From: Escherichia coli
Lineage (GTDB): Bacteria; Pseudomonadota; Gammaproteobacteria; Enterobacterales; Enterobacteriaceae
Strand: one strand, 5' to 3'
DNA: 64,000 nucleotides
Assembly: GCF_050320075.1 (NCBI RefSeq)
Contig: NZ_CP190018.1
The first letter of the stretch is position 1. Each line of letters starts with the position of its first letter. The position numbers are program-made. Positions 22,301-28,300 of the stretch are shown piece after piece.

Positions 22301-25300
22301 TTGCTCAATCACCTGAGTGACCGAGTCTTCTACCGTTTGCGCATCGGCACCTGGATAGGTTGCGCTGACGGTTATGGTCGGTGGCGCAATCTGCGGATAC
22401 TGCGCAACCGGTAAGTTCATGATCGCCAGACCGCCTGCAAGCATCATAATAATGGCAAGTACCCAGGCAAAAACCGGGCGATCAATAAAATAGTTAGCCA
22501 TGAAAGTCCCCTTAAGCCTGCAACGTTATTGTTTCGATTCGGTGCTGGCGTTTTCCTGGCTGGAGGAAATTGCTCGTGCTTTGATACCCGGACGAATGCG
22601 TTGCAAACCGGAAACGATCACCCGATCGCCAGTCTGCAAGCCAGAGGTGACAACCCACTGGTCGCCGATGGCTTTGCTGGCTTCGATTTCGCGTAGCTGC
22701 ACGACATCGTCTTTATCCAGAATGAGCGCCGTTGCTTTACCCTGGGCGTTGTGGGTGACGCCTTCCTGCGGCACCAGTAATACATTCTGGCGGCTACCTT
22801 CATCCACTAATGCCGTAACGTACATGCCAGGCAGCAAGTCACCATTTGGGTTGGGGAAAATCGCCCGTAACGTCACGGAGCCCGTGGTTTCATCCACCGT
22901 CGGGTCGGAGAATTTCAGCGTGCCGGTCTGGCTGTAACGTTTACCATTTTCCAGATTGAGCTGTACTGGCGTACTGCCCTGAACCTGTTTGATTTGCCCA
23001 CTGGCGACCTCTTCTTTCATACGCAAGAAATCCTGCACCGACTGCGTGAGATCGACATAAATCGGGTCCAGACGTTGTACGGTAACCAGCGAATCTGCCT
23101 GATTAGCGGTAACGAGTGCGCCGACGGTCACCGACGATTTCCCGCTGACGCCCGTAATCGGCGAGGTGACATTCGCGTATTGCAAATTGATCGTCGCCTG
23201 TTCAACAGCCGCTTTGGCGACGGTGACATTGGCTTCTGCTTCATTCAGCTGGGTGCGCGCGGTGTCGTAATCCTGACGGCTAACGTAGTTGGTCTTCAGC
23301 AACGATGCCTGGCGGTTAAAGGTGATGCGGGCATTGCTGGCGGTAGAGAGCGCTTTCGCCAGCGTGCCTTTGGCGGAGTTCAGCTCGGCCTGTAAAGGTG
23401 CAGGATCAATCTGATACAGCGAATCGCCCTGGTTCACTTTATCGCCTTCGATAAAGTTGCGTTTAATGATAATACCGCCAACCTGGGGACGTATCTCGGC
23501 AACTTCATAAGGAACGGTTCTACCGGGCAATTCGCTCAATACATTGACCGAACCGGGGGAGAGTGTGACGACACCGACCTCAGGCGTCATGGCGGCGGCG
23601 TTTTCCGCCGATTTGTCATCGCAGGCGGTGAGCATCGCGCCGCAGAATAACAACGGTATTAACAGCTTTCTTCTTCTGTTCATTTTAGTCCCTGAAAATT
23701 CTTGAGAAATAACGGTTCTTTAAATTGCGCGCGAGGAGAGATATGAGGGATTTACAGACCAGCGGCATAGTGGGGTTGTCAGCCAGTAAGGTGGGATACA
23801 GGCATAGTGATCGACATGGTGAGGTCAACGACAAAAAAAATGTTGCCGTTCTGCCAACAGTTCCTGCCAGCATTCGGGCAACGAAGGGTTCTACTGGTGG
23901 ATACACATACCAGGGGAATAAAGTCGTTTTAACCTCTCCTTTAGTAATCACCGGGGGTAATGAAATCAGCATCTGCATCCCTCGTCATGCCAGCCATCAA
24001 TTTCAGTTGCTTATGTCCTGACTAAAAATAAGATGTGATACCCAGGGTGACGATGTCGCTCATACGTCTTAGTTTCAGCTTGTACATAATGTTGAATTTC
24101 TGAATCTTTAATGTTTGTTGCGAAATATTGAGCGTCGACGTGATATTGCTTTCATTTTTATTTTTCAGAATCAGTTGCATAATTTTGAACTGATTATGTG
24201 AAAAACATAATTGTGAATTCTTATGGGGCAAGTGTTTACCATAAGTAATCTCAAGAAGATTTTTGATACTTTCTTTGCGGCTGACAAAATAAATAGGCGC
24301 TTTAGCTTTTAGTTTACTGATGTGATAAGGTGCCAAAACAATAATTCTCTCGGCATCTAATTTCTCCAGAAATTTAATCGCTTCTTCATCAAGGATATGA
24401 TTGTGATAGGTATCAATGATAACCTTGAAGGGTTTATTGCCTACTTTTTTGATCTCTGACAGGGAATTGATTTTTATCATTTCGTGATTATCTTTCAACT
24501 GCCAAAAGCCCTGTAAAAGAAAAGAATCTTTCGTCATGAGAAAAATCATAACTTGCTCCTTAGCCGTTATCGTTTCGAACATGTCATCCTTTTCATTATT
24601 TACATCCTTGTCCGAATCGTTGTTCAATATAGTAAACGCCTATAAGAACTTTGCCCTTCGTGAACTAATACGTCTATTAACACTAATCAATGCTTCAGAT
24701 TTATCCATCACACACTCCATATATTGATCCTAAGTAAAATTCCTGGTTGTTATCAGTTTGTAAACGGCAAACAAAAACTTAACGTTTACGGATTACTGCC
24801 CAAGAATAAGTTATCAATAACCAGTTTGTGATCTCTGAAGAATATTACTAAAGTTAAAATGTAATCCGATTTAAATATCGAGTCTCCTTGTTTCGACTTA
24901 AGCTGGCAATTGGATTGCCAGCTTTCTTTTAACGCATTGAAATTACCTGAGTAAATAACTCATTCATGTCTTCAGGTTTTTATATAGCGTCTGGAGACAC
25001 GGATATTTATGCAATGTAATCAACGCCAGTTGCAAAAAATGAACCCGGATTACTTATTTAACCGCCCATAGCATCAACGCTTACGGAACTCTTTGTTCAC
25101 TTTCCCACAGCACTTTTAAAACATTAAACCTGACTACGGAAAATATCAGCCATGATAATGTTTGAAATGGCTAATTTGCCATGGAATGAAAAAAATTAGA
25201 TGAAATTCAGTAGGTTGAAATAATCATCAGCAGGTAATTATTTCAATGATAGTGCGCAATTGATCTACAACGCTGTGTAGCTGAGAGAGTATTAATCGGA

Positions 25301-28300
25301 TCATAGTCACATCAAGTGACTATGATCCGGGTGACAACAGGAATAATTATTGCTGCTTAACGAACAAACTGGCGAAGCTGAACAGGCTGGCGGCGCTAAA
25401 TATCAGTTCAATACCCACCAGTGTGGAAACCAAAGTTACAGACACCATCGGCGTTGCACCAAGGAATATCCATGCAATGACGATATCCAGCACACCAATA
25501 ACGAGCTGTAGCCAGCTGCCTTTCATTGAACGCTGACGATACCAACTCATCAGGCGAATAACCCCTGCAACACAGAACAAACCGGCAATAAATGCCGCAA
25601 TGGCAAAAATGCCCAGCTCCGGTGCGCGGATGAAGAAATAGCCGATCAATAAATAGGCGACTGCGACGAGGAAACCGGATAATACCGGCCAGAAATTATG
25701 ACTGCGGTTGCTGAATAATCCAACAATAAGCGCAACGCCCGAGCAGATTAATAATGCACCCACTACCGTGCTTAAAATATCGCCAGAGACGAACGGGAAA
25801 CTGATACACAGCAACCCGACGATAAACAGCAACACGGCAATAAACTGGATTGCTCTGCGATGCTTTTTCAGCATCTCCAGATCAAACTTCAAAATTGTTG
25901 CCTTATCTATATATAACATAGAACCACCCTATAAAATTAAGAAGAAAATCCCCTGCTATCAATCTATGCCAAAAACGCGTCTAAGAATGCAGTCGATTTA
26001 ATAAAAATTTCCTAATTACAGTATCTGATGCATCTGTAACTCATTGTATTGAAATAAAAATATCTGATTTTGATATTTTCCATCAACATGACATATACAG
26101 AAAACCAGGTTATAACCTCAGTGTCGAAATTGATTCGTGACGGCTCTTTCACTTTATAGTTGAGGATATTACGATGAAAAAAGTATTAGGCGTTATTCTT
26201 GGTGGTCTGCTTCTTCTGCCAGTTGTGAGCAATGCAGCGGATGCGCAAAAAGCAGCCGATAACAAAAAACCGGTCAACTCCTGGACCTGTGAAGATTTCT
26301 TGGCTGTGGACGAATCCTTCCAGCCAACTGCAGTTGGTTTTGCTGAAGCGCTGAACAACAAAGATAAACCAGAAGATGCGGTTTTAGATGTTCAGGGTAT
26401 TGCAACCGTAACCCCAGCTATCGTTCAGGCTTGTACTCAGGATAAACAAGCCAACTTTAAAGATAAAGTTAAAGGCGAGTGGGACAAAATTAAGAAAGAT
26501 ATGTAATTCCGGGAATGCGTTACATCGTACTTCCTTGCATATTGAACAGGCCGGAATATCTTCTTTAAAAGCAGCTATTCCTCCTGTTCATATATAATCT
26601 CTATATTGAATGGGTTACAAAATGAATATTTCATCTCTCCGTAAAGCGTTTATTTTTATGGGCGCTGTAGCGGCTTTGTCACTGGTGAACGCACAATCTG
26701 CGCTGGCAGCCAATGAATCCGCTAAAGATATGACCTGCCAGGAATTTATTGATCTGAATCCAAAAGCAATGACACCGGTTGCATGGTGGATGCTGCATGA
26801 AGAGACAGTATATAAAGGTGGCGATACCGTTACTTTAAATGAAACCGATCTCACTCAAATTCCTAAAGTGATCGAATACTGCAAGAAAAACCCGCAGAAA
26901 AATTTGTATACCTTCAAAAATCAAGCATCTAATGACTTGCCGAATTAATGAGGTACAAGTAAAAAGGAGTAGCAAGTTGAGCCATCTTGCTGCTCCTTTT
27001 TGCTTTTTTATATGACAGCAGAATTTATTATACGTCTTATACTCGCAGCAATTGCCTGTGGCGCTATTGGCATGGAAAGGCAAATGCGCGGCAAAGGAGC
27101 AGGGTTACGCACACATGTATTAATTGGCATGGGAAGCGCCCTGTTTATGATTGTTTCGAAATATGGTTTTGCTGACGTGCTGTCTTTAAATCACGTCGGA
27201 CTGGACCCCAGCCGTATTGCTGCTCAGGTGGTGACGGGCGTCGGGTTTATCGGCGCAGGTAACATTCTCGTTCGTAACCAAAATATTGTAGGTCTGACGA
27301 CGGCAGCGGATATCTGGGTGACCGCCGCCATTGGTATGGTTATTGGTAGCGGTATGTACGAACTGGGCATTTATGGTTCAGTGATGACCTTGCTGGTGCT
27401 GGAAGTCTTCCATCAATTAACCTTCCGCCTGATGAACAAAAATTACCATTTACAGCTGACATTAGTGAACGGTAATACGGTATCAATGCTCGACTGGTTT
27501 AAGCAGCAAAAAATAAAAACTGATTTAGTTTCGTTGCAGGAAAATGAAGATCATGAAGTGGTCGCCATTGATATCCAGCTTCATGCCACAACGTCGATAG
27601 AAGACCTGTTGCGATTATTAAAAGGTATGGCAGGGGTGAAAGGCGTTTCAATTAGCTAATCTTTATAGTTATTTATTCACAGGAGTACCAGAGCGGTACT
27701 CCTGTTGGTTTTAATGATCGAGGACGATCAGGGGTGAATGGCTGGCAGGATCTTTAAGTACGGTAATATCCGCGCCGTAAAGCATGGTCAGCGCCTGCTG
27801 TGTCAATACGTCCTGTGGTTTACCATTTGCGATAACCTTTCCTTTTTGCATTAATACAACACGGTCTGCATAACGCGCGGCAAGATTTAGATCGTGCAAT
27901 ACGCAGCAAACATTGAACTGCCGTTCGTGAACTAGCTGGCGTAATAAACGAAACAAGTGCTGCTGATGGTGAATATCCAGCGCCGAAGTTGGTTCATCAA
28001 GAAATAACCATTTCGGTGAGGGAGTAGGTTCCCAGAGTTGCACCAGCAGGCGCGCTAATTGCACGCGCTGTTGTTCACCACCGGATAATTGCCGATAGTC
28101 ACGGTTTGCTAACGCCTGACAGTCACATAACGCCATTATTTGTGCTGTTTCATTATCCTGATTACCAGTGCGATGCGGATGCCGCCCCATCTGGATAACT
28201 TCTTGTACGCTGAATGGAAACGCCATGTGGCTATTTTGACGCATCACGGCCCGGTGTTTCGCCAGTTCAGTAATCGACCATTCATTTAATGGCTTATTAA

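What the first reader, a model, noticed from the sequence alone, without database searches (positions are those of the whole stretch)
24550..25346. Unusually long (about 800 bp) AT-rich control region upstream of gadE
No credible ORF is present between hdeD and gadE. Large regulatory leaders with multiple promoters are known for gadE, and an antisense sRNA (ArrS) is described for this region. I cannot place either from memory.
Basis: partly seen in the sequence, partly recalled or inferred. Interest (0 to 1): 0.2.

Follow-up and report, generated by a model that had tools for sequence, protein, structure and literature searches.

The report
Known gadE control region with ArrS
This 797-bp AT-rich gap is the well-studied E. 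coli control region in front of the acid-resistance master regulator gadE, with the antisense small RNA ArrS inside it; it is real but already known.

Summary
Window 24550-25346 is a 797-bp gene-free gap, 35.6% G+C against 49.2% for the whole window. It lies between hdeD (25919-25347, minus strand) and gadE (24549-24022, minus strand). It is 97% identical to the 798-bp hdeD-gadE intergenic region of E. coli K-12 and occurs in 5413 of 5426 complete E. coli genomes; no feature is annotated under it in any of the 39 full-length matches listed.

The literature calls it the "unusually long gadE promoter" or "sensory integration region". Published transcription starts at -21, -124, -324/-317 and -566 map to window 24570, 24673, 24873/24866 and 25114. 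The K-12 annotation places ArrS at window 24861-24930 on the plus strand, 70/70 identical, with an 11-bp terminator hairpin and a T-rich tail.

Comparison with four other Escherichia lineages (gaps of 720-745 bp) shows three conserved islands. They match the distal P3 promoter, ArrS, and the P1 promoter plus proximal leader. The stretch between P3 and ArrS is variable and partly deleted.

No ORF here behaves like a gene. A 26-codon upstream ORF is intact in all eight genomes compared, but it has no coding-type substitution pattern and no annotation.

Verdict: already known, low interest.

The parts
24550..25346 (-). hdeD-gadE intergenic region: the gadE(-mdtEF) multi-promoter control region and long leaders ('sensory integration region')
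   Evidence: 797 bp, 35.6% G+C. 97% identical to the K-12 798-bp region. Present in 5413/5426 complete E. coli genomes, with no feature under any full-length match listed. Function from PMC3708157.
24022..24549 (-). gadE coding sequence (175 aa), the gene controlled
   Evidence: ORF list. Annotated gadE in a 100%-identical genome and in K-12. An in-frame upstream TTG extension is broken by a 1-bp indel in the four other Escherichia lineages, which supports the ATG at 24549.
24556..24561 (-). gadE Shine-Dalgarno sequence AAGGAG, 6 nt before the ATG
   Evidence: Read from the sequence. Invariant in all 8 genomes. CsrA binds the gadE 5' leader in vitro, apparent KD 138 nM (PMC11210196); the site on the leader was not mapped here.
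24570..24570 (-). Published 5' end 'T' (-21); possibly a processing product
   Evidence: Position from PMC3708157, transferred through alignment A1. The same paper says it may be a degradation product.
24673..24673 (-). Published transcription start T1 (-124), from the GadE-autoactivated P1 promoter
   Evidence: PMC3708157, transferred by alignment. It lies in an 81-column island with 90% of columns invariant across the genus (-148..-69).
24550..24755 (-). Conserved proximal island (-206..-1): P1 promoter region plus proximal leader
   Evidence: Cross-genus alignment A2. Overlapping blocks with 82-92% invariant columns, while whole-gap identity to the other species is only 67-69%.
24866..24873 (-). 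Published 5' ends T2 (-317 and -324); they fall inside the segment complementary to ArrS
   Evidence: PMC3708157, mapped by alignment. The overlap with ArrS was computed coordinates.
24861..24930 (+). ArrS small RNA gene (70 nt), antisense to -312..-381 of the long gadE T3 leader
   Evidence: K-12 ncRNA arrS b4704 at 3657985-3658054, mapped through alignment A1 and 70/70 identical. Folds at -20.2 kcal/mol, z = -3.8. Lies within the island -384..-321, where 86% of columns are invariant across the genus.
24900..24924 (+). ArrS intrinsic terminator: 11-bp stem, 3-nt loop, then TCTTTT
   Evidence: Terminator scan, inverted repeat I2, fold. Stem invariant in all 8 genomes.
24934..25105 (-). Variable spacer of the T3 leader between P3 and ArrS; largely deleted or replaced in other Escherichia species
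   Evidence: Alignment A2 columns about 262-436, with gaps of about 60-90 columns in E69, E. whittamii, E. albertii and E1V33. No conserved block there.
25106..25180 (-). Conserved distal island (-631..-557): P3 promoter with T3 start at 25114 (K-12 -566)
   Evidence: Blocks with 85-89% invariant columns. T3 position from PMC3708157, mapped allowing for the 1-bp indel. Inverted repeat 25115-25126/25156-25167 brackets the core promoter.
25297..25329 (-). 14-bp stem-loop 18 nt after the hdeD stop codon: probable hdeD 3'-end hairpin marking the upstream border of the control region
   Evidence: Inverted repeat I1, 100% complementary. RNA fold -26.6 kcal/mol, z = -5.0. 93.8% of cells paired against 23-48% when slid, and 3 pairs with changes on both sides. 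No U-tract follows, so the function is inferred.
25347..25919 (-). hdeD coding sequence (190 aa), upstream neighbour on the same strand
24640..24720 (-). 26-codon upstream ORF in the T2/T3 leader (candidate only; not supported as a gene)
   Evidence: ATG with AGGA 7 nt upstream. Intact in 8/8 genomes, but variable sites fall 3/6/4 at codon positions 1/2/3. Not annotated in K-12, absent from NCBIfam and from the papers and supplements searched. One unnamed-source database record only.

Best explanation
The region is the E. coli hdeD-gadE intergenic control region. It is one AT-rich stretch of DNA that holds several promoters for gadE(-mdtEF) and encodes their long 5' leaders.

From the literature for K-12: H-NS silences the region. 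Different activators relieve this under different conditions. GadE, which on the gadA GAD box binds as a heterodimer with RcsB, autoactivates the proximal P1 promoter (start -124). ArcA-P binds the P1 and P3 fragments. EvgA/YdeO, GadX/GadW, MnmE, PhoP, TorR, CRP and RpoS feed in through at least five circuits. The distal P3 promoter (start -566) produces a leader of about 566 nt.

Inside that leader, on the opposite strand, lies ArrS, a 70-nt RNA induced by acid, sigma-S and GadE. ArrS is perfectly complementary to -312..-381 of the T3 leader. Pairing gives an RNase III-dependent effect on gadE mRNA stability and raises GadE and acid resistance. ArrS also acts in trans through Hfq, for example on cfa. 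CsrA binds the gadE 5' leader.

Shown here: identity of the region, exact placement of ArrS and of the published start sites, absence of a credible gene, and conservation of three functional islands across the genus. Inferred from K-12 work, not measured for this strain: promoter use, regulator binding and ArrS action.
For: - Flanks and coordinates.
- 97% identity to the K-12 798-bp region.
- Present in 5413/5426 complete E. coli genomes, always chromosomal.
- K-12 annotation of arrS. It maps to 24861-24930 (+) with 70/70 identity, has a terminator and a stable fold.
- Published starts, regulators, H-NS/ArcA antagonism and GadE autoactivation of P1: PMC3708157.
- ArrS complementarity to the longest gadE transcript and induction by sigma-S and GadE: PMC6755755.
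- RNase III link: PMC6212723.
- Trans action via Hfq: PMC5145812.
- CsrA binding to the gadE leader: PMC11210196.
- RcsB/GadE heterodimer on the gadA GAD box: PMC2887963.
- Cross-genus footprint: the gap is 720-798 bp and 33-36% G+C in E. albertii, E. whittamii and two further lineages. The conserved islands coincide with P3/T3, ArrS and P1 plus leader.
- All 24 substitutions and the indel against K-12 lie outside ArrS and outside the P3 island.
Against: - There are no expression data for this strain, so promoter use and ArrS production are transferred from K-12.
- The sigma-70 consensus scan recovers none of the published promoters and finds no more sites than shuffles do (8 against 8.3). This fits activator- or sigma-S-dependent promoters but gives no independent support.
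- A GAD-box consensus scan of the gap scores no better than shuffled sequence (best 13/20), so GadE sites could not be placed.
- Rfam gives no match for ArrS.
- The -21 start, and perhaps T2, may be processing products rather than true starts.
Confidence: 0.95

Rival explanations
1. The gap hides a small protein-coding gene. The best candidate is the 26-codon upstream ORF at 24720-24640 (minus strand). It would be translated from the long T2/T3 leaders and would act as a leader peptide affecting gadE translation or mRNA fate, as EvgL does for evgA.
For: - ATG start with AGGA 7 nt upstream.
- Start, stop, frame and length intact in all 8 Escherichia genomes, although whole-gap identity to the other species is only 67-69%.
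- A leader peptide (EvgL) exists in the same regulatory cascade (PMC11210196).
Against: - Variable sites fall 3/6/4 at codon positions 1/2/3, and most changes alter the amino acid. The central 36 nt are invariant even at synonymous sites, which is the pattern of DNA/RNA-level constraint from the P1 promoter and T1 start inside the ORF.
- The 'SD' is part of TTAGGAT, the left half of the GAD-box consensus (sequence reading).
- Not annotated in K-12 RefSeq, which does carry recently found small proteins.
- No NCBIfam model and no mention in the full-text library.
- Absent from the held text of the supplements (several files cut when stored) of an acid-stress ribosome-profiling study.
Confidence: 0.1
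2. Most of the 797 bp is non-functional AT-rich filler left from horizontal acquisition of the acid fitness island. Only a short proximal promoter matters.
For: - Low G+C typical of acquired DNA.
- The -557..-385 stretch is poorly conserved and partly deleted in other species.
- No excess of consensus promoters.
Against: - Two distal islands (-631..-557 and -384..-321) have 85-89% invariant columns across species whose gaps are otherwise only about 67-69% identical, and they coincide with the published P3/T3 and with ArrS.
- Deleting the P3 region cuts anaerobic expression to about one third (PMC3708157).
- The gap length is held at 720-798 bp across the genus.
Confidence: 0.03

Closest known systems
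E. coli K-12 hdeD-gadE intergenic region (PgadE, '750/798-bp sensory integration region'; Ma et al. 2004 and Sayed & Foster 2009 as cited in PMC3708157)
   Same: Same flanking genes and orientation. 797 against 798 bp and 97% identity. All published start-site positions and the ArrS gene are present.
   Different: 24 substitutions and one A7-to-A6 indel near 25034, none in ArrS or the P3 island. The strain background differs: the chu heme-uptake locus sits between yhiD and dctR.
ArrS (arrS, b4704), cis-antisense and Hfq-dependent trans-acting sRNA
   Same: 70/70 identity, same position (-312..-381 of the gadE leader), same terminator.
   Different: Nothing detectable at sequence level. Expression was not tested here.
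GadY / gadX-gadW, the other cis-antisense sRNA of the acid fitness island
   Same: A small RNA encoded antisense to a gad regulator mRNA that alters its processing and stability, with RNase III and Hfq links (PMC5145812). GadY itself is in the window at 17940-18053.
   Different: GadY overlaps the gadX 3' UTR in the gadX-gadW intergenic region. ArrS overlaps a 5' leader. There is no sequence relationship.
evgL-evgA leader peptide coupling
   Same: A long leader of an acid-resistance regulator that contains a short upstream ORF.
   Different: The evgL stop overlaps the evgA start and its translation has been demonstrated. Here the uORF ends 90 nt before gadE and has neither a coding signature nor expression evidence.

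Membership tests
hdeD-gadE intergenic control region of E. coli (PgadE) | Lies between hdeD and gadE, both on the same strand, within the acid fitness island | tested here: met
   ORFs and RefSeq annotation of a 100%-identical genome.
hdeD-gadE intergenic control region of E. coli (PgadE) | About 798 bp, AT-rich, without a protein gene | tested here: met
   797 bp, 35.6% G+C. ORFs no longer than in shuffled sequence. Nothing annotated except arrS.
hdeD-gadE intergenic control region of E. coli (PgadE) | Sequence orthology to the K-12 region | tested here: met
   97% identity over the full length.
hdeD-gadE intergenic control region of E. coli (PgadE) | Multiple transcription starts (-21, -124, -324/-317, -566) | not testable with these tools
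   Positions transferred from PMC3708157. The sequences around T1 and T3 are conserved, but there are no RNA data for this strain.
hdeD-gadE intergenic control region of E. coli (PgadE) | Bound and regulated by H-NS, ArcA, GadE/RcsB, GadX/W, EvgA/YdeO and others | tested here: inconclusive
   The GAD-box consensus scan is no better than shuffles. Binding is known only from the literature.
ArrS sRNA | Sequence identity to K-12 arrS | tested here: met
   70/70.
ArrS sRNA | Antisense to the 5' leader of the longest gadE transcript (T3) | tested here: met
   Plus strand 24861-24930, which is -312..-381, downstream of T3 at 25114.
ArrS sRNA | Rho-independent terminator at its 3' end | tested here: met
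   11-bp stem, 3-nt loop, TCTTTT tail.
ArrS sRNA | Acid-, sigma-S- and GadE-dependent expression; RNase III-dependent effect on gadE mRNA | not testable with these tools
   Literature only.
ArrS sRNA | Match to a curated RNA family model | tested here: inconclusive
   No Rfam match in the gap at E-value up to 1 or at gathering score. This says nothing if Rfam holds no ArrS model.
Leader peptide / small protein gene | ORF with start, stop and ribosome-binding site conserved across species | tested here: met
   Intact in 8/8 genomes, AGGA 7 nt upstream.
Leader peptide / small protein gene | Coding-type substitution pattern (excess of third-position or synonymous change) | tested here: not met
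   Variable sites 3/6/4 at codon positions 1/2/3; mostly amino-acid-changing.
Leader peptide / small protein gene | Evidence of translation or annotation | tested here: not met
   Not in K-12 RefSeq, NCBIfam, the paper library or the acid-stress Ribo-seq supplements as held. A single unnamed-source database record.

The most novel reading that the evidence does not exclude
The 26-codon upstream ORF (24720-24640, minus strand), preserved in every Escherichia lineage examined, is translated only from the long T2/T3 leaders. It would then act as a leader peptide that tunes gadE translation or mRNA decay, adding a translational layer analogous to EvgL-evgA.
Probability: 0.08. Interest if true: 0.4.

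Novelty: already known. Interest (0 to 1): 0.08.

Why it matters
[quoted passage not shown] Its control region is a textbook case of many signals converging on one long, H-NS-silenced promoter region with an embedded antisense RNA.

For this scan the value is in annotation. The gap is explained. ArrS and the published transcription starts now have exact window coordinates. The genus-wide footprint shows which parts of the 797 bp are under constraint. Nothing here changes current understanding.

Tried and rejected
1. The sigma-70 promoter scan of 24000-26200 found 8 sites against 8.3 expected. None was at a published gadE promoter, so it was no help in placing promoters.
2. The GAD-box consensus (TTAGGATTTTGTTATTTAAA) has one exact hit in the window, at 15246-15265, just upstream of the gadA gene (gadA starts at about window 15345). 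Within the gap the best score is 13/20, which shuffled sequence reaches routinely, so GadE sites were not placed.
3. Rfam gave no match in the gap.
4. The primary papers (Sayed & Foster 2009; Aiso et al. 2014) are not held in the library. Their content was taken second-hand from open papers that cite them.
5. I considered a longer GadE with an N-terminal extension from the in-frame TTG at 24627. I rejected it because a 1-bp indel breaks the frame in four other Escherichia lineages.
6. For the uORF peptide I tried an exact-sequence database look-up, a full-text search, NCBIfam, and the supplements of an acid-stress ribosome-profiling paper. None gave supporting evidence.
7. A literature search for 'gadE' plus 'uORF' returned only unrelated papers, because 'Gade' is also an author name.
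8. I could not assign a convincing -10 element to the annotated ArrS 5' end (24861) from sequence alone. TAAAAT at 24855-24860 is too close and TACTAA at 24846-24851 is a weak match, so this is left open.
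Full report
**What is at the coordinates.** On the minus strand the window carries gadE (ATG at 24549, stop ending 24022, 175 aa) and hdeD (25919-25347, 190 aa). 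The gap between them, 24550-25346, is 797 bp with 35.6% G+C, against 49.2% for the whole window. A genome 100% identical over this stretch (E. coli YZLc1-3) and K-12 MG1655 both annotate the flanking genes as hdeD and gadE. K-12 annotates nothing inside the gap except the ncRNA arrS.

The longest ORF confined to the gap is 48 codons, the part of the 63-codon ORF 24536-24727 that lies inside it. Of 1000 dinucleotide-preserving shuffles, 84% do at least as well (mean 62). None of seven small-ORF products matches an NCBIfam family above its cut-off.

**Identity.** The gap aligns end to end with the K-12 798-bp hdeD-gadE region at 97% identity: 24 substitutions and one A7-to-A6 indel near 25034. 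It is found in 5413 of 5426 complete E. coli genomes, always on the chromosome. Identities are mostly 95-99%, and no feature is annotated under any of the 39 full-length matches listed.

The literature treats this region as a known oddity. [quoted passage not shown] It reports transcription starts at -21 (T), -124 (T1), -324/-317 (T2) and -566 (T3). [quoted passage not shown]

**Placement of the known elements.** Position -n maps to window 24549+n, with a one-base correction beyond the indel.

| Element | K-12 position | Window coordinate |
|---|---|---|
| T | -21 | 24570 |
| T1 | -124 | 24673 |
| T2 | -317 / -324 | 24866 / 24873 |
| T3 | -566 | 25114 |

The T3 transcript would begin AGUGCUGUGGG. 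A numbering-convention error of ±1 is possible.

The K-12 ncRNA arrS (b4704, 3657985-3658054, minus strand) maps to window 24861-24930 on the plus strand and is 70/70 identical. It ends in an 11-bp stem, 3-nt loop and TCTTTT, which the terminator scan and the repeat finder detect independently. It folds at -20.2 kcal/mol, z = -3.8. ArrS is thus complementary to -312..-381 of the T3 leader, and both T2 5' ends fall inside that duplex. This fits, but does not prove, published accounts in which ArrS acts on gadE mRNA in cis in an RNase III-dependent way (PMC6212723; PMC5145812; PMC6755755).

**Comparative evidence generated here.** A protein-based scan of one genome per species recovered gadE with hdeD directly upstream in six usable Escherichia loci: E. 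albertii, E. whittamii, Escherichia sp. E1V33, a divergent "E. coli" E69, and two E. coli-like genomes. The gap is 720-798 bp and 33-36% G+C in all of them.

Whole-gap identity of the window to the four non-coli lineages is only 67-69%. Three islands nevertheless stand out:

- **-631..-557 (window 25180-25106).** This contains T3 and an inverted repeat (25115-25126/25156-25167) that brackets the P3 core promoter.
- **-384..-321 (24933-24870).** This is the body of ArrS with its terminator.
- **-206..-1 (24755-24550).** This is the P1 promoter region, T1, the proximal leader and the AAGGAG ribosome-binding site.

The stretch between P3 and ArrS (about 24934-25105) is variable and loses roughly 60-90 alignment columns in the other species. 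All differences between the window and K-12 lie outside ArrS and the P3 island. The constraint pattern matches the published functional map and argues against the idea that most of the gap is filler.

**How it most likely works.** These steps are inferred from K-12 work:

- AT-rich DNA is coated and silenced by H-NS.
- Condition-specific activators displace H-NS and fire P3, P2 or P1.
- GadE amplifies its own synthesis from P1.
- The long T3 leader is the substrate for ArrS pairing and RNase III-dependent processing that raises gadE expression.
- CsrA binds the gadE 5' leader and affects gadE expression.

Shown here are only the sequence-level facts: presence, position, conservation and structure. 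Expression in this strain was not and could not be tested.

**The one loose end.** A 26-codon ORF (24720-24640, minus strand; MECVMDKSEALISVNRRISSRRAKFL) has an ATG and an AGGA 7 nt upstream. It lies in the T2/T3 leaders, with the T1 start inside it. It is intact in all eight genomes.

Several points count against it as a gene:

- Variable sites fall 3/6/4 over codon positions 1/2/3.
- Most changes alter the amino acid.
- The central 36 nt are invariant even at synonymous sites. That is the signature of nucleotide-level constraint from the P1 promoter, not of coding.
- Its "SD" is part of TTAGGAT, the left half of the GAD-box consensus.
- It is unannotated in K-12, has no family model, and appears in no searched paper.
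- It is not in the held text of the supplements of an acid-stress ribosome-profiling study.

I give translation with a regulatory role about 8-10%.

**Border element.** Eighteen bases after the hdeD stop there is a perfect 14-bp stem with a 5-nt loop (25297-25329). As RNA it folds at -26.6 kcal/mol, z = -5.0. Across the eight genomes 93.8% of cells pair, against 23-48% when the partner is slid. Three pairs change on both sides, for example GGAT/ATCC to GCCT/AGGC. These changes largely separate E. coli from the other lineages, so they represent few independent events. No U-tract follows. It is most simply the 3'-end hairpin of hdeD mRNA, but that is inference.

**Verdict.** The finding is real and correctly interpreted, and it is already known. 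The work here adds coordinates and a genus-level conservation map, not a discovery.

Noticed in passing
window 24640-24720 (-): A 26-codon upstream ORF in the long gadE leaders, with ATG and an upstream AGGA. It is intact in all 8 Escherichia genomes compared, but it has no coding-type substitution pattern and no annotation. Its 'SD' coincides with TTAGGAT, the left half of the GAD-box consensus.
   Followed up: yes
window 25297-25329: A perfect 14-bp palindromic stem-loop 18 nt after the hdeD stop. It is conserved across the genus with three pairs changed on both sides, and no U-tract follows. Probably the hdeD mRNA 3'-end hairpin.
   Followed up: partly
window 25115-25126 and 25156-25167: A 12-nt inverted repeat (TTTAAAACATTA / TAATGTTTGAAA) 29 nt apart that brackets the P3 core promoter just upstream of the T3 start. 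It lies in the distal island, which is 85-89% invariant across the genus. Candidate regulator binding sites; regulator not assigned.
   Followed up: no
window 25130-25159 (+): A sigma-70-like site (CTGACT-18-GATAAT) on the plus strand inside the conserved P3 island, pointing towards the hdeD 3' end. The number of such sites in the region does not exceed chance.
   Followed up: no
window 23833-23904 (-): Rfam ES205 match (105 bits) in the gadE-mdtE spacer. It lies at the position where K-12 annotates GadF, the sRNA derived from the gadE 3' UTR.
   Followed up: partly
window 23743-24021 (+): RefSeq annotates a 92-aa 'hypothetical protein' (WP_001551801.1) here in the identical genome, antisense to the GadF region and abutting the gadE stop. 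K-12 has no such gene, so it is probably a spurious call.
   Followed up: no
window 17940-18053 (-); 43834-43917 and 44068-44151 (-); 33573-33604 (+): Other curated RNA elements in the window: GadY (150 bits), two AgrB copies next to dinQ, and the chuA/shuA 5'-UTR thermoregulator.
   Followed up: no
window about 27711-36661: The chu/shu heme-uptake locus (chuA, chuS, chuT-U and others) lies between yhiD and dctR inside the acid fitness island. K-12 lacks it here, so the window comes from a non-K-12 lineage.
   Followed up: partly
L009 (Flavobacterium paronense contig NZ_JAUFQN010000010.1) and L010 (Streptomyces sp. DH24 contig NZ_JARVKW010000110.1): Both contigs carry E. coli acid-fitness-island DNA. 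L009 has hdeD at 98% identity, a 797-bp gap and a frameshifted gadE. L010 is a 466-bp gadE fragment at 100% identity. Both are almost certainly assembly contamination.
   Followed up: partly
window 24585-24594 and 24603-24612: A short direct repeat CATCCTT(T/G)TC, 18 nt apart, in the proximal gadE leader. On the mRNA strand these are GGATG-containing motifs that could be CsrA GGA sites. Not tested.
   Followed up: no
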